A stretch of 50,335 bases of DNA from a virus, in the UHGV virus genome UHGV-1998140, one strand, 5' to 3'. Below are positions 3,001 to 28,755 of the stretch, piece after piece. Positions within the stretch are counted from its first letter, which is position 1, and every line of letters starts with the position of its first letter. The notes below the pieces were generated by a model. That model was given only the letters and a program-made list of their open reading frames with translations. It had not been told where the DNA came from and searched no databases. The translations under genes and the position numbers were made by a program.

Positions 3001-6000
3001 TGATACGACGTCATACCCCATGCGGTCGTAAGAAGGATCAAATGCCGGGTTAGGTATATAGTCATCCCCGGCTGCTTTTGCGGCGCTAATTGAGCTGTTG
3101 AGGGAAGTGATATTACTGTTCGCTGCAGTCAGGCCACTTTCCGTCTTCTCCACTCGCCCGGTCAGTGACGTCAGCGCGCTCTGATCCGCCTTTTTACTCA
3201 CATTCGAGTTCGTCGTGGTCAGGTCATTCTGCAGCTTTGTGATTGCCTGGCTGTGGCTGGCCAGTTTCCCTTCCGCTGAGTCAACGCGACTGGTCAGGTC
3301 AGTCACGGCAGAGGCATTTGCCTTCTTCGACACCCCGGTCGACGAAAAAACGTCGACTTTACGGATATACAGACGCGCACTGTTTGACGGTACCCAGCCC
3401 CCGGCGGCAAACCGCAGATAGACATAATTCCCGGTAAAGTTTTCCGGAATGGTCAGCTCCACGGTTTTCGTCTGCCAGCTGGTCGTCACGCCACTCAGCC
3501 ACGGGGATTCTGAGGATAGCCAGGCGACAGGATTGCCCAAATCAGTTATCACACCAACGGTATCAGACGATACGCTGTTCATCGTTTCCGATGTTTTGTA
3601 CTCAAATGAGACGGTAAGCGTCAGCCCGGCCTCAGCAGGGATACGCGTGACGTTGGCAACCCGAACAGAGCCGGTTGTCGTTCTCAGCGCTTTTTCACCT
3701 GCATCATACGTGAATGCCGAGCCGGTACCGGAGTTCTCCCAGAACGACAGATCCACATCCATGCCGCCGTTACTAATCAGGCTCCCTTCAGCCAGGGTGT
3801 TTTTCAGCATCGTCAGCTGGCCAGACTGTGTGGTCAGGTTGCCTTCCGTCGCGGATACCCGGTTGGTTAACGCCGTGACCGCGCTCGCATCGGCCTTTTT
3901 ACTGACGTTTGAATTGGTTGTCGTCAGGTCGTTCTGCAGTTTAGCGATCGCGCTGCCCTGGCTGGTCAGCGTTTTATCCTGCTGGCTGACGCTGGACTGC
4001 AGGCCCGTGATGGCGTTGCTGTTTGCGGCCACGCCCGACTCTGCTTTACCGACGCGGTTAGACAGCGAGGTCAGCGAATTCCCCTGGCTGGTTAACGTAG
4101 TGCCCTGCTGTTCAACCTTTTGCGTGAGGGACTGCAGCGCGGTTGCATCGGCTTTTTTACCCAGACTGGTTTCCAGCCCGCTGATTTTGCTGGCCTGTGC
4201 GCTTTGTGCGGTCGACAGGGAACTCAGCTCCTCCGCCACCGAGGATTTATTCTCGTTGAACTGCGTCTGCAGCGATTCCCGGGCTGTCACCTCTGCTTTA
4301 TCAGCAGTGATACGGGCATTCATCTCCTGAAACAACAGGCCAGAGCGCAGGTCTGCCAGATTATTGCTTTCACTCGTCCCCCGCATCTGCGTGGCCAGCG
4401 TGGCTCGCTTATTCGCTTCTGCCGTATCGGCATTCGCACGGGCTGTCGATTCTTCGCGCAATGCTGCAGTGCTGGCTCCCGGCGTCGGTCGACCCACGGC
4501 AATCCAGTCAATGATGATGAAATTATCATCAGACTGATCCACCGTTAAATCGAGGCGAAACTGGACAACCGGCTTGCTGTCATCGCTTCCCCAGGGAATG
4601 TCCTGAATACTGAGAACAGCCCTGCCACTGCTGTCATAATCCGGCTCTGCGACGGTCAGCATGCGACTGTCGTTGAACGACTGACCTTCATAGCGCCAGC
4701 GGATTTGACCACTCCACGCGGGCGTCCCCGTTTTCTTAAGACGCAGTTTCAGAAAGCGGTACGCTGAGCCACTGATACTGATTCCAGGAGATGTAATGTA
4801 AGCATCTGTCGCATGGTTTGCCGGTCTCAGCCAGCCGTTTTCAACAACCGAAGGCGTGCCGCCGTTAGATGTCCAGCCTTCCCGGTCGTTATCAAAGTAC
4901 CAGATAGCCTGGCTGTCAAACTGCTCCCCGGTTCCCGCCGAAATCTGAGCCATCTGTGTGGCCAGAGAATCATTCACATTCTGGATGATTTGCTGTGTCG
5001 ACTCGATAGCTGCAACACGCTCGTTTTTTTCATTCAGCAGCTGGTCTGCCGCCTGCGCCGCTTTCGCGTTGACGTCCGCAATGCGGTCGGCAGTCTCCTG
5101 TTTTACCGCTTTGTCCCAGCCTGTATTCGCCTGGGCGATGGACTGTTTCAGACTGTTTTCAACCGTCTGCAGCTGGGATTTTAACGCAGCATCCCCTTCG
5201 GCCAGGGTTTTGTTAACGTCAGCGATCTGCTGGTCAACGGAGGCATTAATATCGCTCACGGCATCGGTGATGCTCTTGTTGACTGCCGTGATATTGTCAC
5301 TGAGCGTCTGATTTACGCTGTTGATATTCTCCGTTATCGACTTGTTGACCGCCTCTATCTGCCCGTCAACCTGCTGGCGGATCTCAGACGCGGAATCATC
5401 AATACTCTGGTTAATATCGGTGACCTGCTGCGCGACTTCTTCACGAATAGCATCGGCGGTTTTTGTCAGCTCCTTGTGGGTCTCCTCAATATCCCGCTGG
5501 GCTTCCTGCCAGGCTTCCGTATCCTTAATCGCATCGGTCAGCTTGTCGTAATACTCACCGATATCGTCGCTGGCCATCCCCTGCACCCAGGCGGTCCACG
5601 GGCTTTCATTGCCGATACGATCAACGATCCGCGCGCGGTACCAGAATATCGCCGCAATCTGCAGGCCCATCTGCTGATACGTTTTACCCGGATACGCCAC
5701 ATCAGACAGCGCCATCGCCCCGTTGCCGTTGGGATTAGGACTGTACTGCAGCTCGGTTTTCTGCGTATCGCCGCTCCCCTCCGGGAACTCCCAGTTCAGC
5801 TGCACGCCATGCAGCAGGGAAGTGGTGGTCAGCGCCAGCGGTGCCGACGGCAAACCGATTTTTCCGGTCAGCGTTTTCTCTTCTGAGTATGCCCAGCCGC
5901 TGGAGACCTCTGCAGCGTTGATCGCCCGGACACGGGCCAGATAACGACCGGCGTAAATGCCGCTGACCTCGAACGAGGTGGTCGAGCTGCGCGGCACGTT

Positions 6001-21110: not shown

Positions 21111-21289
21111 TATTTCTCCCCGCTATTTTTTGCGCTGGCGGATACCGAGCGCGCGATTAAAAAAGACCAAAGCAGACAGAGTATTCCGCCTGTGATAAAC
21201 CCCGCTGCAGGTAATAAAAGCCAGGCTCCGGTAGAAACCAATAAAGCCCCGGCAAGGCCAATAATGAAACTCAGAATTGTGATTAGCAC
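21110..21289 (-). CDS. Small membrane protein (59 aa, 2 predicted TM helices)
   Basis: GTG start at 21289 with GAGGAAG upstream, overlaps terL stop; its TAA overlaps the portal ATG (TAATG); not in ORF track because <60 aa. Confidence 0.45.
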   Translation of the reverse strand: MLITILSFIIGLAGALLVSTGAWLLLPAAGFITGGILCLLWSFLIARSVSASAKNSGEK

Positions 21290-23004
21290 GCTACGTCTTC
21301 CTCATCATAGATAGATTTGATGACTGCGCTGTTCAACATGGCGCGCCCTATCCCCATCATTAAACCAACCGCACCATCAATCTTGTTTTGTTTCCCCTCC
21401 TTTGTCGGACGGACAATATCGTCGCTGCCCGGCAAATACCGACCTACAACGTTCTGGATGCACCAGTTCATGATGGGATTTCCGTCATGATGGAATCGCC
21501 CCGACGCCAGTGCAGCTTCAATCTCTCTCATGGGGTCGCTCATATGGGTGAAGTTCTGTCTGATTTCGACGGGTTCCAGTCCCTCTTCCTCAAGCAGATG
21601 GCGCAAGGAAGTGGCACCATAAGGATCGATAGGACACTGGGCGATTTTCACGTTCTGACGTAACTGCAGGATGGATTCGAAAATCAGCCGATAATCTACT
21701 TCTGCGCCCTCAGTTGGAATTAAAACGCCCTGTCCCACAAAGGACTGATAACGTTCAGAGGTATGCTTAAGCTTCGGGTCGACAGAATAGATGGTGTCTT
21801 CAGGCACCCAGAACATAGGGCCTACGCAGTAGAAATGGGTAATACCTTCTATATCGCGACGAAAAACAGGAATAACGGCGTTAAGATCGACCTTTGACGC
21901 TAGATCTATTCCCAGCCAGCATTCCTCATCGGCAAAATCAGACAATTTCAGACTCTTGTCAGCAGCAGCCATCCATTTCTGTAAATCGTAAAAGACTGTT
22001 TTTGCGCTAACCCAACGATTAAAATGCTTGGTCAGGATCTTGTTGGTCTGACTGGGGTTCGATATCGCCAGTAACTGTTTTGCGCGAAGAAAGTGCTCTT
22101 TTACCGATATCCCATAATTGGGATTGGCTTTAATGAGCGCTTCCGGCTGAGTCCAGTCATCATCATCATCCAGACCATAGATGATGCCGAAAATGCCCTC
22201 ATTCTCTTCCCCATTGCGGGTTTTGCGCAGGATCTCCACCACCTGTTCCCGCTTCTCATAGCACGGCGATGTAATGTCATAACCGGCTGTCGTGATGATG
22301 AGCGTAATGGGTTGCTCGCGAGCCCCCATCCCTGTCGTCATCGTGGTATACAGGGCATCGGTAATATGTTCGTGGTATTCGTCGATAATGGCGCATGACG
22401 GCGAATCACCGTCACCGGGATCGCCAATCACGGGTGCAAATATGGAGCCATCCGGGCGAGTCATTTTTTTTGCCCAGGGCTTTATAGAAAATTTCTGCCG
22501 CAATGCGGGCAGCTTTTTCACCATCAACAACGCCGGAGCAAACACTTTCCAGGCCTGCTTTTCGGTCGTGGCGCCGCAGTACACTTCCGCACCATGTTCA
22601 CCGTCAGCGCAGAACATATAATTGCCAACGGCAGCGGCAATTGCTGATTTGCCGTTCTTTCTAGGAACTTCGATATAGATCTCAGTGAACCGCCGCAGGC
22701 CACTTTTTTTATTTACCCAGCCAAACGGAACACCCAGGGCAAACTTTTGCCAGGGTTCAAATTCTATCCTGAGTTTTCGGCGGGCCCATTCCCCTGCGGT
22801 ATGTGGCATTTTTTGTGCAAAACGAAGAAATCGCTCTGCCTTATTTTTATCGAACCGGTAAGGCCAGTTCGGATCCTTCGCGCGTTCCAGGTCATCAAGA
22901 TGTCGCTTGCAGGCAAGAATAGTTAACTGACATGCCAGAATCTTCCCGCCAACGATATCCCGTGCATACTGGTTCGCCGCATTGACGTTCGGATATGTGG
23001 CCAT
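21283..23004 (-). CDS. Terminase large subunit
   Basis: 573 aa, Walker A-like PRKNGKS, start overlaps small-subunit stop. Confidence 0.9.
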   Translation of the reverse strand: MATYPNVNAANQYARDIVGGKILACQLTILACKRHLDDLERAKDPNWPYRFDKNKAERFLRFAQKMPHTAGEWARRKLRIEFEPWQKFALGVPFGWVNKKSGLRRFTEIYIEVPRKNGKSAIAAAVGNYMFCADGEHGAEVYCGATTEKQAWKVFAPALLMVKKLPALRQKFSIKPWAKKMTRPDGSIFAPVIGDPGDGDSPSCAIIDEYHEHITDALYTTMTTGMGAREQPITLIITTAGYDITSPCYEKREQVVEILRKTRNGEENEGIFGIIYGLDDDDDWTQPEALIKANPNYGISVKEHFLRAKQLLAISNPSQTNKILTKHFNRWVSAKTVFYDLQKWMAAADKSLKLSDFADEECWLGIDLASKVDLNAVIPVFRRDIEGITHFYCVGPMFWVPEDTIYSVDPKLKHTSERYQSFVGQGVLIPTEGAEVDYRLIFESILQLRQNVKIAQCPIDPYGATSLRHLLEEEGLEPVEIRQNFTHMSDPMREIEAALASGRFHHDGNPIMNWCIQNVVGRYLPGSDDIVRPTKEGKQNKIDGAVGLMMGIGRAMLNSAVIKSIYDEEDVAC

Positions 23005-23438
23005 CAGTCAAACTCATCAAATTCATTCCCGTCATCGTCCTGATCATTTTTGCCGCTGGTCATTCGGATACGGCTGAGCGGATCTAACCCCAGTAGCGAG
23101 CCCAGACGGGCTATCTGGGAAACAGAGTCATTTCTGACGTTTACGGCAGGATGTTTTTTTAACCCTCCCATTTCGCTTTCAGTTGTCAGCCCGTTAGCCA
23201 GTAATTTTTCGGCTTCGAGCATCAGATGGAAGGCGTTGCAGTAAGCCAGAAGTAAAGGGGCATCTTCAAGCTCAAAAACGCCTCTTTCGATCAGGATTTT
23301 ACTTTGAGTCTTCCATATTCTTATAGCCGCCTCCCCCATCAACTCAGCCGGGGGCGCGATTCGGGTCAGTTTACTTTTTTGCCCGGTGGGTAAAACGGGT
23401 TTTCTTCCCCCTCCAGACGATCTAATACCAGCAGCCAT
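23004..23438 (-). CDS. Terminase small subunit (P27-like)
   Basis: 144 aa with acidic C-terminal tail, strong RBS, immediately upstream of terL. Confidence 0.7.
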   Translation of the reverse strand: MAAGIRSSGGGRKPVLPTGQKSKLTRIAPPAELMGEAAIRIWKTQSKILIERGVFELEDAPLLLAYCNAFHLMLEAEKLLANGLTTESEMGGLKKHPAVNVRNDSVSQIARLGSLLGLDPLSRIRMTSGKNDQDDDGNEFDEFD

Positions 23439-23575: not shown

Positions 23576-23776
23576 TCAGTCGAGGTGGAAGTCGTCATTC
23601 AGGTTGCGCCGACGACCGCTGCTCGCGTTGTGTGGGCAGGCACTCGAGTTATGCCCGGACTGACCGCAATAACTGCAGCGCAAATTGGCGCGACGTGAGG
23701 AACCACCCCACGTTTTCGGGCAGTTCGCGTATGTATGAAGCTGTGAACCGCAATAAGTACAGCGGGTATAACCCAT
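23576..23776 (-). CDS. Small protein with two CCHC zinc-knuckle motifs
   Basis: Two CX2CX4HX4C motifs (CTYCGSQLHTYANC and CSYCGQSGHNSSAC); start placed at third ATG, 4 nt after GGAGGG. Confidence 0.5.
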   Translation of the reverse strand: MGYTRCTYCGSQLHTYANCPKTWGGSSRRANLRCSYCGQSGHNSSACPHNASSGRRRNLNDDFHLD

Positions 23777-23806
23777 CATGCCCTCCATTCATTAAGAATG
23801 CCGTTA

Positions 23807-24247
23807 TCAGGTTTCAGTTGGTGCCGGTGCAACGCCACCATCAGCCTGCAGCACACTTTCCGGCAAACGCTCAATCAGCGGGGCATTCTCAAATACTTTG
23901 AGACCGTACTGGCCAACCCAAGTGCTTTCCTGCCCAACGCTGCCAGAGATGAAGTCCATCACTTCTGCCAACAGCTCTTTAACCAGAGCCTCCGTACGCG
24001 TCCGCCAGTGGCCTTCAATGGCGACCAGGAGAGGATCTGAACCGTTGGCAATACTTTGCTTGCCTACCGAGTAGGTTTTCTTTTTCGCCTTATCGGTCAC
24101 ACACTGCAGCTGTGTCATCAGGGCCAGAACAGCAATCGGAGTTGTATCGCGGACTTCGATAGTCATCGTGGCCAGCTTGTTACCCGATTCAGCATCAGTG
24201 GATGATGCGTAGTACATTGAAATGGTTAAATCATCACGACTGAACAT
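23807..24247 (-). CDS. Hypothetical protein
   Basis: 146-aa ORF in the HNH-terminase cluster, no recognisable motif. Confidence 0.45.
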   Translation of the reverse strand: MFSRDDLTISMYYASSTDAESGNKLATMTIEVRDTTPIAVLALMTQLQCVTDKAKKKTYSVGKQSIANGSDPLLVAIEGHWRTRTEALVKELLAEVMDFISGSVGQESTWVGQYGLKVFENAPLIERLPESVLQADGGVAPAPTET

Positions 24248-24249
24248 GA

Positions 24250-24546
24250 TTAATGGCTCCGGTTACGGTTGCGATTTTTATTGCGGTTACGCTGATGGCG
24301 CGGTGCGGTTTCGGCTGGCAGGTGCTCGCCTTCGAACGCTTGCGCTGGCTCTTGCGGTTGCGGTTGCGGTTGAGCGGGAACCAGTCCCTCGGGAATTTCA
24401 CCACCTACCTCAAACTTGAGATGCGGTTCTTTCCCCAAGAAATGGCTGAAGTTCAGGCCCGATAGTCCTGCATTGAGCATCGAGATCCCCTCGACATCAA
24501 CGGTAACGAGTTGGCCATCAACGTATTCAATTTTTAAATTCTTCAT
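24250..24546 (-). CDS. Hypothetical protein with PQ repeat and basic C-terminal tail
   Basis: ATG at 24546 overlaps HNH stop (ATGA); contains (GCGGTT)3 hexamer repeat encoding PQPQPQ and a C-terminal RNRNKNRNRNR tail. Confidence 0.5.
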   Translation of the reverse strand: MKNLKIEYVDGQLVTVDVEGISMLNAGLSGLNFSHFLGKEPHLKFEVGGEIPEGLVPAQPQPQPQEPAQAFEGEHLPAETAPRHQRNRNKNRNRNRSH

Positions 24547-24905
24547 CGTGTTCTCTCTGTTGCGGTTTTCGTTCTGTGGCACGGCCAGCACAACGATTCC
24601 AGATTGTAATTGTCATCAGTACCGCCGTGGGCTTTAGGAATGATGTGGTCGACGCTGGTAGCTTTTGTGGCGATACCGTGGCGTCGGCAGTTCTGGCAAA
24701 GGTATTTGTCGCGCACGAGTATCTGGGCACGAATGATTTCCCAGGAACGACCGTATCCGCGTTGCTGTCGGGTTTTTCCGGTCTGATAGTTACGCCAGCC
24801 ATCGCCAGTGTGTTGCTGCCGATGGATCTCGCAGTATCTAGTGGCGTCATTCGTCACTGCCGCGCATCCTCTGTGCCGGCAAGGTCGTTTAGCTCGTGGT
24901 GGCAT
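24543..24905 (-). CDS. HNH endonuclease (terminase-associated, HK97 gp74-like position)
   Basis: Cys/His HNH core (DHIIPKAHGG ... CWPCH); start placed at ATG 24905 (MPPRAKRPC) with GAGGA upstream. Confidence 0.8.
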   Translation of the reverse strand: MPPRAKRPCRHRGCAAVTNDATRYCEIHRQQHTGDGWRNYQTGKTRQQRGYGRSWEIIRAQILVRDKYLCQNCRRHGIATKATSVDHIIPKAHGGTDDNYNLESLCWPCHRTKTATERTR

Positions 24906-25053
24906 ACACATCCTCAAGCATGAATTTGGAGAGAGTAAAAGCGGCACTGTCGATGGGGAACTCTGAAACTGGCAACGATGCGAATGACAAATCGTCATAC
25001 GAAATCACCACCAGCTTCCCTCCTACGTATTCAATTTTTAAGCTCTTCATCAT
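24889..25053 (-). CDS. Small ORF, N-terminal paralog of 24250-24546 product
   Basis: 54 aa MMKSLKIEYVGGKLVV... shares its first ~22 residues with MKNLKIEYVDGQLVTV...; weak RBS. Confidence 0.35.
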   Translation of the reverse strand: MMKSLKIEYVGGKLVVISYDDLSFASLPVSEFPIDSAAFTLSKFMLEDVYATTS

Positions 25054-25224
25054 GTGGCATCACGAATACAAAAAGCCCCGCAGATGCGAGGCTACTGGTT
25101 ATACATCAGGGTGTTATTGATAGAGAGCAGCGTGTAAGGTTATCGCTCAGCCGCCTGTGGTGGGACACAGGTAGATATTGTAATTGCAGAGGGATAGCTG
25201 ATTAGCTCTGCTTAAGGAATAGAA

Positions 25225-25425
25225 ATGATTAAAAAGAATATGCACCTTCAAATGGAATCAAATGCCCAAACAATCGACGAATTGAACAAAGAAATTGGGC
25301 AACTGAAATGTGTCGTTGGTTTCTTAATGACTCAATTACCACCGCAATCTAGGCAGGCTGTCATCAATAATCTTGAGGAGTTTGGACTTGATGAGTCAGT
25401 TAAGGAATTTACTCAGTTCCTTTGA
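25225..25425 (+). CDS. Hypothetical small protein
   Basis: 66 aa, AAGGAA RBS 6 nt upstream of ATG, low-GC region. Confidence 0.45.
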   Translation: MIKKNMHLQMESNAQTIDELNKEIGQLKCVVGFLMTQLPPQSRQAVINNLEEFGLDESVKEFTQFL

Positions 25426-25809
25426 ACAAGGCTTGACCTAATAAATTAATGTACCAGCCTTGAGAATTTTTGGGTTGTGTCCCAGGCGAAGTAGTGGACT
25501 CGCTTCCTTCGCCTGAAACATTTTTTGGGTTTGAAGTTTTGACGTTCAACGTTTTCAAGTTATTCCTCCTTATTACGATCCCCGCTAAGTGATACAGACA
25601 GATTTATCCCTTGGTAGGGATAGATGTTCTCACCGATTCGTAAATCCGCTCACAGGTCATTCCTGCTTTGTAGCGTTCGTCTGCAATTGCAGCATACGCC
25701 ACGGGGATTAACTACTTATGTCTAACAATCGACAGTCTCATTGTTACAGCCATTAAAAAAACCACCCATGTGGAGTGCCCCCCGAAATGTGGCCTATCTG
25801 ATCGCTATG

Positions 25810-27792: not shown

Positions 27793-28023
27793 TTATCTTG
27801 CTCCCTTCTCTGTAAGCTGCGGGCAGTTGGCCTGCACGGATTTGTTGTACGCCAAGATGTCGCGCTTCGTCTGCTTATCCAGCACGTCAATATCGCGGTC
27901 AGTGAGATAGATAATTTTCGCCCACAGGCACCCTGTATCAACGACCACCGGGGCGGGTGAATTGCTCGCGCAGCTCACGATCAACATCGTCATCAGGCAT
28001 ATGGCTAACAGTCTGCTGTACAT
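27793..28023 (-). CDS. o-spanin (Rz1-like outer-membrane lipoprotein)
   Basis: Start at internal ATG (MYSRLLAICLMTMLIVSCAS) giving a lipoprotein signal with lipobox Cys; overlaps the i-spanin gene out of frame. Confidence 0.6.
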   Translation of the reverse strand: MYSRLLAICLMTMLIVSCASNSPAPVVVDTGCLWAKIIYLTDRDIDVLDKQTKRDILAYNKSVQANCPQLTEKGAR

Positions 28024-28216
28024 CACTGGCCTCCCTGGTGGCTTCCTCTTTCCGTTCTGCCGCAGCGACTCTGGCGGCGGCATCCTCTTCTGTACGTTTC
28101 TTCTCAGATTCCGCTACGGCTTTTTCACGACCGCTCATTCTGCCCAAACCAAATACACCCATGAGCAGAAGAACTGCCGCAGTGAGAAATGCCAGAATGG
28201 CTTTAATTTGCGTCAT
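27938..28216 (-). CDS. i-spanin (Rz-like)
   Basis: 92 aa, N-terminal TM helix then charged coiled-coil; directly downstream of endolysin. Confidence 0.6.
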   Translation of the reverse strand: MTQIKAILAFLTAAVLLLMGVFGLGRMSGREKAVAESEKKRTEEDAAARVAAAERKEEATREASDVQQTVSHMPDDDVDRELREQFTRPGGR

Positions 28217-28755
28217 AGCTTCACTCGCTCTTTCACCCAGCCATAAACGAACGACTCATTAGCCGAGCGCTGTTCAGCCAGTTCAAGATACCTTTGGCCC
28301 TGGCTGCAATTGAGAGCGCGCAGCAGCACTTCTTCACCTTCCTTACCCCGGGTATTCAGATAGGATTTCAAAGCATTGATGCTACGGGGTCCAATCTGCC
28401 CGTCAGCAATAAGATCTGGATAAAGTTTCTGTTGATTGTTGAAAACGTTCAGCCAGCGCTGGAACCATTTCACCTGAACAGATGGCCCCATATTTACGCC
28501 TGTATCGCACAACTCTGCCGCAATTGATGGAGAAACTGTCGCAACCAGGTCAAAGCGCGGCCCATACCAGTAATCGGCTGAAAGGATATCCAGAGCCTGC
28601 TGACGAGTCAGATCACGCATATCGCCTGAATAACCATGGGCACGGGCAACGGCCTGAGTAATCCCCCAGTTAGTTGGACCACCCTTGTCGTTTGGATTGT
28701 TAACATAGCCACCCTCTTTACCGAGGATGCTGTTGAAAATATCTTCTTTAGTCAT
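28213..28755 (-). CDS. Endolysin (GH108-like muramidase with peptidoglycan-binding region)
   Basis: 180 aa, N-terminus ILGKEGGYVNNPNDKGGPTNWGIT typical of GH108 lysozymes; flanked by holin and spanin genes. Confidence 0.75.
   Translation of the reverse strand: MTKEDIFNSILGKEGGYVNNPNDKGGPTNWGITQAVARAHGYSGDMRDLTRQQALDILSADYWYGPRFDLVATVSPSIAAELCDTGVNMGPSVQVKWFQRWLNVFNNQQKLYPDLIADGQIGPRSINALKSYLNTRGKEGEEVLLRALNCSQGQRYLELAEQRSANESFVYGWVKERVKL

What the first reader, a model, noticed from the sequence alone, without database searches (positions are those of the whole stretch)
24250..25053. Duplicated N-terminal module flanking the HNH gene, with in-frame hexamer repeat
ORFs on either side of the HNH gene begin with homologous ~22-aa segments (MKNLKIEYVDGQLV vs MMKSLKIEYVGGKLV) and then diverge. 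The downstream one contains a (GCGGTT)3 tandem hexamer encoding PQPQPQ and ends in an RNRNKNRNRNR tail. This suggests local duplication or recombination around the HNH insertion and a slippage-prone repeat.
Basis: seen in the sequence. Interest (0 to 1): 0.5.

Follow-up and report, generated by a model that had tools for sequence, protein, structure and literature searches.

The report
Recombination scar beside a phage HNH gene
The short ORF upstream of the HNH gene is most likely the leftover 5' end of a small phage gene that was cut off when an HNH-containing gene block recombined in, and the hexamer repeat in the intact downstream copy is an in-frame microsatellite whose copy number really does vary between related Klebsiella prophages; this is ordinary phage mosaicism.

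Summary
All genes here are on the minus strand. A 54-aa ORF (24889-25053) and a 98-aa gene (24250-24546) flank a 120-aa HNH gene (24543-24905) and share about 29 N-terminal residues and a 31-nt DNA repeat (28/31). A perfect (CAACCG)3.5 hexamer array lies at 24352-24372, and the 98-aa protein ends in RNRNKNRNRNR.

- **The 98-aa gene:** It belongs to an uncharacterised family restricted to Klebsiella and Raoultella prophages (phiKO2 gp61, PHROG 4567). Its parts are a four-strand beta domain, a disordered P/Q/E linker, an EGE(L/H)LP motif and an Arg/Asn tail. It is always followed by a gp62-like gene.
- **The upstream ORF:** In relatives with lambda-type terminases and no HNH, an intact gp61 sits behind the same terminator and ribosome-binding site that precede the mini-ORF here. 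The mini-ORF resembles that subtype more than its own downstream neighbour. Its substitution pattern is near neutral. One relative has lost the start codon, and another has a different chimera at the same spot. I read it as a mosaic-joint scar, not a local duplication.
- **The repeat:** Copy number varies from 1 to 5 among close homologues and always stays in frame.

The function of gp61 remains unknown. Interest is low to moderate.

The parts
25074..25093 (-). Intrinsic terminator hairpin (8-bp stem, then TTTTGTATT). It lies immediately upstream of the mini-ORF.
   Evidence: The terminator scan found it and the fold confirms the stem. The same hairpin precedes intact gp61 genes in L021, L034, L036, L047, L048, L058-60 and L065, and precedes the mini-ORF in all mini-bearing loci.
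24889..25053 (-). Mini-ORF of 54 aa. Residues 1-30 are homologous to the N-terminal domain of gp61-type proteins, and residues 31-54 have no identifiable source. Its last 17 nt overlap the HNH start, and its codons LEDVY carry the GAGGA Shine-Dalgarno sequence of HNH. I interpret it as a truncated gene remnant.
   Evidence: establish the homology. Searches show a near-neutral substitution pattern. Searches show synteny with intact genes. One search shows a relative (L055) with the start codon lost.
25025..25055 (-). Upstream copy of the 31-nt imperfect direct repeat (ACAyGATGAAGAnnTTAAAAATTGAATACGT).
   Evidence: 28 of 31 bases are identical to the downstream copy.
24543..24905 (-). HNH endonuclease gene (120 aa, start MPPRAK), of the packaging-associated type. 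The gene is itself chimeric, with a crossover at about 24600-24700.
   Evidence: Pfam HNH 2.3e-14 and PHROG 144 6e-40. The start matches phiKO2 gp60. The identity profile shows the 5' part 93-100% identical to L007 and the 3' part 94-100% identical to phiKO2/L004.
24521..24551 (-). Downstream copy of the 31-nt direct repeat. It spans the HNH stop / gp61 start overlap (ATGA).
24250..24546 (-). gp61-like gene (98 aa). Residues 1-48 form a predicted four-strand beta domain. Residues about 50-98 are disordered and contain a P/Q/E linker, an EGEHLP motif and an Arg/Asn tail.
   Evidence: PHROG 4567 1e-38 over the full length. It is 92% identical to phiKO2 gp61. The AlphaFold2 model has pLDDT about 85 for residues 1-48 and below 60 after that. 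The family alignments are A2 and A3.
24352..24372 (-). Perfect hexamer array (CAACCG)3.5, encoding QPQPQPQ in the disordered linker. Copy number is polymorphic in relatives.
   Evidence: TRF. Relatives carry 1-3 copies at DNA level and up to 5 at protein level, and the adjacent (GCGCAA) AQ repeat carries 1-3 copies.
24259..24291 (-). Coding sequence of the RNRNKNRNRNR tail, an imperfect (CGN AAY) repeat.
   Evidence: A basic tail is conserved in all subtypes: RRRRNRQRSQ, RRSRHRRGGKQ and RHRNRNRNRSQ.
23807..24247 (-). gp62-like gene (146 aa), the constant partner of gp61. Its function is unknown.
   Evidence: PHROG 2473 1.7e-57. It follows gp61 in every locus examined. Pfam, NCBIfam, PADLOC and PDB gave no match.

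Best explanation
The region is a mosaic joint in a Klebsiella-type temperate phage.

The small genes gp61 and gp62 (phiKO2 numbering) form a fixed pair. They sit between the lysis cassette and the terminase genes.

- In phages with a lambda-type terminase (Nu1 or DUF1441 small subunit plus gpA) there is usually no HNH gene. An intact gp61 then follows a terminator and a weak ribosome-binding site directly.
- In phages with an HK97/P27-type terminase an HNH gene is always present. It is usually fused by an ATGA overlap to the start of gp61.

The window's arrangement is terminator, 54-codon ORF, HNH, gp61, gp62, terminase small subunit (TerS), terminase large subunit (TerL). The simplest origin is a non-homologous joint. 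A resident gp61 of the 'LPVSA' subtype was cut after about 30 codons and joined to sequence just upstream of an incoming HNH-gp61-gp62 block. The 5' stump, with its terminator and start codon, was left behind (inferred).

Later homologous exchanges swapped the gp61-gp62 cassette and the stump's first codons. One crossover is visible inside the window's HNH at about 24600-24700 (shown).

The stump is probably still translated in most relatives. It carries the HNH Shine-Dalgarno sequence and overlaps the HNH start, so its translation may simply deliver ribosomes to HNH (inferred). Its amino-acid sequence is under little or no constraint (shown).

The (CAACCG)n array and the neighbouring (GCGCAA)n array lie in a disordered linker of gp61. 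They gain and lose whole hexamers, most likely by replication slippage (mechanism inferred, polymorphism shown). This changes linker length by two residues at a time and never breaks the frame.

What gp61 does is not known. Its conserved beta domain, EGELLP motif and Arg-rich tail, and its constant pairing with gp62, suggest a small late protein that binds a partner and possibly nucleic acid. That is speculation.
For: - **Synteny:** In L034 and L036 the full-length 102-aa gp61 follows gcctcgcatctgcggggcttttttattcgcaaaaggtaacgcgATG. This is the same terminator and ribosome-binding site as upstream of the mini-ORF in the window, L003 and L013. The first 41-43 nt of the coding sequence are 93-95% identical.
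- **Insertion geometry:** L021 has a terminator followed by a phiKO2-type gp61 and no HNH. It aligns to the window on both sides (window 25010-25215 and 23837-24549). Relative to it, the window carries an extra block of about 504 nt, bounded by the 31-nt repeat.
- **Subtype:** Residues 1-30 of the mini-ORF match the LPVSA subtype at 17-26 of 30 positions. They match the gp61 of the same genome at 11-15 of 30, in 7 of 7 loci. The profile comparison with the LPVSA subtype gives E = 7e-17.
- **A second joint at the same place:** In L026-L033, 11 codons of the module (MQNIKIEYVNG) are fused to the C-terminal ~83 residues of a phiKO2 gp59-like protein, followed by HNH.
- **Variable left flank:** The HNH left flank has many unrelated contexts (I counted at least 8 types), and similarity among them breaks down at or within a few nt of the ATG.
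- **Link to terminase type:** 73 of 73 loci with an HK97-type terminase have HNH. 8 loci with a gpA-type terminase have none. 5 gpA-type loci have HNH, and in at least 2 of them (L074, L090) it is split or truncated. This fits HK97 gp74 promoting cos cleavage, while lambda has no such gene (PMC9410871).
- **Relaxed constraint:** For the mini-ORF dN/dS is 0.2-0.9, against 0.06-0.2 for HNH in most pairs (0.42 for the near-identical L003/L002 pair). Changes at codon positions 1/2/3 number 18/15/19 in codons 1-30 and 11/4/10 in codons 31-48. In L055 the start codon is ATG->ATT.
- **Crossover in HNH:**
- **Repeat polymorphism:**
- **Disorder of the linker:**
Against: - The mini-ORF is open in all 23 distinct DNA variants, and its only indel is 3 nt long. 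Chance retention has a probability of roughly 0.05-0.1. Some selection for an open frame, or for a product, cannot be excluded.
- Some divergent pairs have dN/dS of 0.2-0.3.
- Residues 31-54 have no identified donor sequence, so the exact joint is not mapped. hhalign extends the alignment without gaps to residue 47, but only 1-4 of those 17 positions are identical.
- The ancestral genomes are not available, so the order of events is inferred.
- No expression data exist.
Confidence: 0.72

Rival explanations
1. The mini-ORF is a functional small protein. On this view it is a domain-only paralogue of gp61, kept by selection, for example as a partner, competitor or regulator of gp61/gp62 or of HNH. 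Its origin by recombination could still be true.
For: The ORF is open in 23 of 23 distinct variants, and 22 of 23 have a start codon. The chance of having no stop codon is about 0.05-0.1. PGAP annotates it. dN/dS is 0.2-0.3 in the most divergent pairs. Stand-alone versions of the domain of about 69 aa exist in a distant branch of the family.
Against: There is no third-position excess of substitutions. Many pairs have dN/dS of 0.6-0.9. The window and its closest relatives have lost the AAGG Shine-Dalgarno sequence. L055 has lost the start codon. Many sister phages with the same HNH-gp61-gp62-terminase block lack it. Conservation of the 3' end is explained by the overlapping HNH ribosome-binding site and start.
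Confidence: 0.17
2. A local tandem duplication of the 5' end of the resident gp61, made in situ when HNH inserted. This would be a target-site-like duplication.
For: A 31-nt repeat (28/31) brackets the mini-ORF remainder plus HNH. An analogous short duplicated gene end next to an inserted gene has been described in mycobacteriophages (PMC3029335).
Against: Beyond the first 26 nt the two copies differ at most synonymous sites. The upstream copy is consistently closer to another subtype than to its neighbour. The same mini-ORF accompanies three different downstream gp61 subtypes.
Confidence: 0.06
3. The HNH gene is a free-standing homing endonuclease that spreads into gp61 alleles, and the repeat is its recognition or repair footprint.
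For: HNH presence and absence is polymorphic at one site (L021 against the window). The left flanks are variable and break at the ATG. One phage record annotates the neighbouring gene as a homing endonuclease. The idea that nicks could convert HNH-minus phages is raised in PMC3592412.
Against: HNH presence tracks terminase type: 73 of 73 HK97-type loci have it, and it is absent or decaying in gpA-type loci. This fits a packaging cofactor. HNH is under strong purifying selection, with dN/dS about 0.1. Homing does not normally duplicate the target.
Confidence: 0.05

Closest known systems
Klebsiella phage phiKO2 genes 60-61-62 (HNH, Gp61, Gp62)
   Same: The window is 92.7% identical at DNA level over 23779-24905. 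The gene order HNH-gp61-gp62 upstream of the packaging genes is the same. gp61 is 92% identical and has the same architecture.
   Different: phiKO2 has a 241-aa gp59 upstream of HNH and no mini-ORF. Its PQ tract is QPQQQ rather than QPQPQPQ. phiKO2 is a linear-plasmid prophage, whereas the upstream half of the window resembles prophages with a lysis cassette, terminator and mini-ORF.
Mosaic joints and gene remnants in tailed-phage genomes (illegitimate recombination near gene boundaries; for example mycobacteriophage Island3 gp67/gp68, PMC3029335)
   Same: A short stretch of one gene is repeated on the far side of an inserted gene. The break points coincide with gene starts. Related genomes lack the insert (one search compared).
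   Different: Here the repeated piece is a 5' end that keeps its own terminator, start codon and open frame. It overlaps the next gene's start and has persisted through many later exchanges.
HK97 gp74-type packaging-associated HNH endonucleases
   Same: It is a small HNH protein encoded next to a P27-family TerS and an HK97-type TerL. In this gene neighbourhood it occurs whenever that terminase type occurs (PMC9410871; PMC3592412).
   Different: Two small genes (gp61, gp62) lie between HNH and TerS. No activity was tested.
In-frame microsatellites in disordered protein linkers
   Same: It is a perfect hexamer array whose copy number differs between near-identical alleles. It lies in a region predicted to be disordered.
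   Different: It is not a contingency locus, because the unit is a multiple of three and no allele is frameshifted.

Membership tests
PHROG 4567 / phiKO2 Gp61 family (function unknown) | Full-length sequence match to the family profile | tested here: met
   1e-38, residues 1-98 against profile positions 1-98 of 98. It is 92% identical to phiKO2 gp61.
PHROG 4567 / phiKO2 Gp61 family (function unknown) | Followed directly by a gp62-like gene (PHROG 2473) | tested here: met
   This holds in the window and in all 96 sequences examined wherever the flank is present.
PHROG 4567 / phiKO2 Gp61 family, applied to the mini-ORF | Match over the whole domain, linker and basic tail | tested here: not met
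   Only residues 2-31 match (PHROG 4.6e-06; hhalign 29 columns). There is no linker and no tail.
Packaging-associated HNH endonuclease (HK97 gp74-like) | HNH catalytic motif | tested here: met
   PF01844 2.3e-14, above the gathering score.
Packaging-associated HNH endonuclease (HK97 gp74-like) | Encoded next to an HK97/P27-type terminase and co-occurring with it | tested here: met
   TerS is PF05119. 73 of 73 HK97-type loci have HNH, and 8 gpA-type loci lack it.
Packaging-associated HNH endonuclease (HK97 gp74-like) | Stimulates cos cleavage by TerL | not testable with these tools
   This needs biochemistry.
Free-standing homing endonuclease gene | Presence/absence polymorphism at an otherwise conserved site, with the enzyme cleaving the empty site | tested here: inconclusive
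   The polymorphism is seen (L021 against the window). Presence follows terminase type, however, and cleavage specificity cannot be tested here.
Phase-variable simple-sequence contingency locus | Repeat-number change switches the reading frame or promoter on and off | tested here: not met
   The unit is 6 nt and all alleles with 1-5 copies stay in frame.
Mosaic-joint gene remnant | The remnant shares its upstream flank and start with an intact gene at the same position in relatives | tested here: met
Mosaic-joint gene remnant | Relaxed protein-level constraint compared with neighbouring genes | tested here: met
   dN/dS is 0.2-0.9 against about 0.1 for HNH. Codon positions vary about equally, 18/15/19. 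One relative has lost the start codon. The frame is nevertheless still open in every variant.

The most novel reading that the evidence does not exclude
The truncated N-terminal domain is a maintained product, a decoy or adaptor version of gp61. In addition, the 31-nt direct repeats bracketing HNH let the phage gain or lose the HNH gene by recombination when it swaps between HK97-type and lambda-type packaging modules. That would make this a built-in 'module adaptor' rather than a passive scar.
Probability: 0.08. Interest if true: 0.55.

Novelty: new member of a known kind. Interest (0 to 1): 0.25.

Why it matters
This is a clean, well-resolved example of how tailed-phage genomes are assembled from modules. 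The donor-type and recipient-type arrangements both survive in relatives. A second independent chimera marks the same junction. The HNH gene travels with the terminase type that needs it and decays where it is not needed.

It also defines an uncharacterised, narrowly distributed gene pair (gp61-gp62) that sits between lysis and packaging genes in Klebsiella temperate phages, including phiKO2-like plasmid prophages. Only 48 clusters at 50% identity were found among 1.84 billion representative proteins.

For annotation, it warns that the 54-aa 'hypothetical protein' is probably not an independent gene. None of this overturns current understanding.

Tried and rejected
- **Function of gp61, gp62 and the mini-ORF:** Pfam, NCBIfam and PADLOC gave nothing. 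Profile searches against PDB sequences gave nothing. PHROGs gave only families of unknown function.
- **Structure of gp61:** The AlphaFold2 model shows a confident four-strand domain only. Foldseek against PDB and BFVD found no match with E <= 0.001.
- **Structure of gp62:** The single-sequence model had pLDDT 41 and was not searched.
- **Origin of mini-ORF residues 31-54:** blastn-short of that 52-nt piece against all 96 sequences hit only other mini-ORFs. Other reading frames of the intact gene show no resemblance by eye (sequence). The ungapped hhalign extension to residue 47 is not backed by identities, so I do not claim it.
- **Promoter in the mini-ORF region:** None was found.
- **E. coli genomes:** No match.
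- **Exact 54-nt window pattern in species-representative genomes:** No match. A degenerate pattern hit only K. oxytoca NBRC 105695.
- **N-terminal extension of HNH:** The ORF is open to 24998 in the window, but this is not conserved in L003, L013 or L014, so I rejected it.

Full report
**1. What is in the sequence**

Everything relevant is on the minus strand. Read in the direction of transcription, the features are as follows.

| Feature | Window coordinates | Notes |
|---|---|---|
| Intrinsic terminator | 25074-25093 | |
| Mini-ORF | 24889-25053 | 54 aa |
| HNH endonuclease gene | 24543-24905 | 120 aa; Pfam HNH 2.3e-14, |
| gp61-like gene | 24250-24546 | 98 aa; its ATG overlaps the HNH stop (ATGA) |
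| gp62-like gene | 23807-24247 | 146 aa |
| CCHC zinc-knuckle ORF | 23576-23788 | 70 aa |
| Terminase small subunit (TerS), P27 family | 23004-23438 | PF05119, |
| Terminase large subunit (TerL) | 21283-23004 | |

The two N-termini are similar well beyond chance.
- The local alignment scores 65 over 29 residues, against 19.0 +/- 3.3 for shuffles (0 of 2000 reached it).
- 28 of 31 bases match around the two start codons.
- The profile-profile probability is 98% over 29 columns.

The hexamer array is perfect: 24352-24372, period 6, 3.5 copies. The protein ends in RHQRNRNKNRNRNRSH.

**2. What the 98-aa gene is**

It matches PHROG 4567 (unknown function) over its full length (1e-38). It is 92% identical to Gp61 of Klebsiella phage phiKO2, and the window is 92.7% identical in DNA to the phiKO2 HNH-gp61-gp62 block.

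The family is small and narrow. A profile of the N-terminal domain found only 48 clusters at 50% identity among 1.84 billion representative proteins. Named members come from Klebsiella and Raoultella, and the 11 phage records that hold it are all Klebsiella phages.

All subtypes share one architecture:
- a domain of about 48 residues that starts M-K-x-L-K-I-E-Y-V-D-G-x-L-V;
- a P/Q/E/A-rich linker;
- a conserved (K)EGE(L/H)LP motif;
- a basic tail (RNRNKNRNRNR, RRRRNRQRSQ or RRSRHRRGGKQ).

AlphaFold2, run on a 34-sequence alignment, predicts four beta strands for residues 4-47 with pLDDT about 85. It predicts no structure after residue 50. Foldseek against PDB and BFVD, and sequence searches of Pfam, NCBIfam, PADLOC and PDB, gave nothing significant. 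The function is unknown.

**3. Gene-order survey**

I classed 96 sequences with local HMM and phmmer searches. These were the window, annotated phage and plasmid hits, contigs encoding mini-ORF homologues, and 80 IMG/VR loci. gp61 is followed by gp62 wherever the flank is present. HNH is the movable part.

| Arrangement | Loci |
|---|---|
| mini-ORF - HNH - gp61 - gp62 - TerS - TerL (includes the window) | about 35 |
| HNH - gp61 - gp62 - TerS - TerL, no mini-ORF | about 40 |
| gp61 - gp62 with no HNH upstream | 11 |
| gp61 - gp62 - HNH - TerS | 1 (L040) |
| mini-ORF - damaged HNH - gp61 - gp62 - second HNH - TerL | 8 |

HNH presence follows terminase type.
- All 73 loci with an HK97/P27-type terminase have HNH.
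- Eight loci with a lambda-type terminase (Nu1 or DUF1441 small subunit plus gpA) have none.
- Five gpA-type loci have one, and in at least two (L074, L090) it is split or truncated.

This fits what is known: HK97 gp74 promotes cos cleavage, and lambda has no such gene (PMC9410871). HNH genes commonly sit next to cos and terminase genes (PMC3592412).

**4. What the upstream ORF is**

Six results bear on this.

- **Synteny.** L036 reads holin - lysozyme - Rz/Rz1 - terminator - gp61 (102 aa) - gp62 - DUF1441 - gpA. The terminator and ribosome-binding site in front of that intact gp61 are the same as those in front of the mini-ORF in the window, L003 and L013. The first 41-43 coding bases are 93-95% identical. 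L021 has the terminator directly before a phiKO2-type gp61. It aligns to the window both at 25010-25215 and at 23837-24549. Relative to it, the window carries about 504 extra bases (the rest of the mini-ORF plus HNH), bracketed by the 31-nt repeat.
- **Subtype.** Residues 1-30 of every mini-ORF tested match the 'LPVSA' subtype of gp61 (the L034/L036 type, found in HNH-less phages with gpA-type terminases) at 17-26 of 30 positions. They match the gp61 of the same genome at only 11-15 of 30 (profile E = 7e-17). This argues against a local duplication.
- **Association.** The same mini-ORF accompanies three different downstream gp61 subtypes.
- **A second chimera.** In L026-L033 the first 11 codons (MQNIKIEYVNG) are fused to the last ~83 residues of a phiKO2 gp59-like protein, followed by HNH.
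- **Left flank of HNH.** There are many unrelated left flanks (I counted at least 8 types). Similarity among them breaks down at or within a few nt of the HNH ATG.
- **Residues 31-54.** These have no detectable source. The identities do not support the ungapped hhalign extension. The precise joint is therefore not mapped.

**5. Is the stump a gene?**

The evidence is mixed but leans to no.

- Pairwise dN/dS is 0.2-0.9. For the adjacent HNH it is 0.06-0.2 in most pairs, and 0.42 for the near-identical L003/L002 pair.
- Across 23 distinct DNA variants, the minimum numbers of changes at codon positions 1/2/3 are 18/15/19 for codons 1-30 and 11/4/10 for codons 31-48. There is no third-position excess.
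- L055 has ATG->ATT and a damaged terminator.
- The window and its closest relatives have lost the AAGG Shine-Dalgarno sequence present in other variants.
- Against this, the frame is open in all 23 variants and the only indel is 3 nt. I estimate chance retention at about 0.05-0.1.
- The 3' end (LEDVY ATTS*) contains the GAGGA ribosome-binding site and the first codons of HNH, which explains its conservation.

My reading is that any selection acts on keeping ribosomes moving into HNH, not on the peptide. This is an inference.

**6. Later exchange**

A 60-nt identity profile shows that the window's HNH is itself chimeric.
- From 24905 to about 24700 it is 93-100% identical to L007 and 75-88% identical to phiKO2.
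- From about 24665 through gp61 and gp62 it is 94-100% identical to phiKO2/L004 and 43-77% identical to L007.
- Further right, the CCHC ORF and TerS are again 97% identical to L007.

The conserved HNH and terminase genes therefore serve as homology arms for swapping gp61-gp62 cassettes.

**7. The hexamer repeat**

Among proteins 88-99% identical to the window's gp61, the PQ tract reads QPQ, QPQPQ, QPQPQPQ (the window), QPQPQPQPQ or QPQPQPQPQPQ. Total lengths run 94-102 aa in 2-residue steps. The adjacent AQ tract has 1-3 units. DNA from the loci shows whole (CAACCG) and (GCGCAA) units gained or lost.

All alleles are in frame, and the tract lies in the predicted disordered linker. This is slippage-type length polymorphism, not phase variation. 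Whether linker length matters is untested.

**8. Comparison with what is known, and verdict**

The closest described sequence is phiKO2 genes 60-62. The phenomenon is a truncated gene end left at a mosaic joint, with break points at gene boundaries. This is well known in phage genomics, and a very similar duplicated gene end beside an inserted gene is described for mycobacteriophage Island3 (PMC3029335).

Its 'recombination' and 'slippage' readings are supported, and its 'local duplication' reading is not. I rate the finding a new member of a known kind, with low to moderate interest (0.25).

The one reading that would raise interest is that the stump is a maintained decoy domain, and that the repeats mediate reversible gain and loss of HNH. 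I give that about 8%.

Noticed in passing
L010 3646-4045, L011 3646-4056, L012 3906-3995 (K. oxytoca prophage loci related to the window); not present in the window: The HNH gene next to the mini-ORF carries an 8-bp tandem repeat (CAAAAGCC/CAAAATCC)n inside the catalytic DH...HGGT stretch. In L012 it has period 8 and 11.2 copies. Compared with the window type, the extra length is 40 nt in L010 (out of frame), 48 nt in L011 and 72 nt in L012 (both in frame, adding 16 and 24 residues). This looks like a phase-variable or decaying HNH. The 'frame' flags printed used a wrong reference length, and the values given here are corrected. These loci carry a second, different HNH gene between gp62 and the terminase genes.
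   Followed up: partly
window 25604-25702 (-): A 32-codon ORF (MAYAAIADERYKAGMTCERIYESVRTSIPTKG*) matches the C-terminal end of the Rz-like spanin of L036. It lies downstream of about 2 kb of AT-rich, moron-like sequence and away from the intact lysis genes near 27800-28750. It appears to be another gene remnant at a mosaic joint.
   Followed up: partly
window 23576-23788 (-): A 70-aa ORF with two CCHC zinc-knuckle-like motifs lies between gp62 and TerS (weak Pfam hits only). Zinc-ribbon proteins next to HNH and terminase genes are tabulated in PMC3592412. Relatives carry other small ORFs at this position.
   Followed up: no
L026-L033, about 3343-3630: A 95-aa chimeric ORF. The first 11 codons of the gp61/mini-ORF module are fused to the C-terminal ~83 residues of a phiKO2 gp59-like protein. 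It sits behind the same terminator and directly upstream of HNH.
   Followed up: yes
L045, L074, L076, L083, L090: These loci have HNH upstream of gp61 in phages whose terminase is lambda gpA-type. In L074 and L090 the HNH is split or truncated. This suggests a passenger gene decaying where it is not needed.
   Followed up: partly
window 25225-25425 (+): A 66-aa ORF lies on the opposite strand between the Rz remnant and the terminator. A 66-aa ORF is called at the equivalent place, in the same relative orientation, in L007 and L009. Its function is unknown and it is likely a moron.
   Followed up: no
P0137, P0139, P0145 (proteins): These are further truncated or fused versions of the N-terminal module. 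For example, P0145 breaks right after LPVSA at residue 30, and P0137 is fused to a tail-fibre-like C-terminal region. A distant branch of ~69-110-aa proteins (MQDLKIEYRDGKLVEL...) has different C-terminal parts. The module therefore recurs with many different tails.
   Followed up: no
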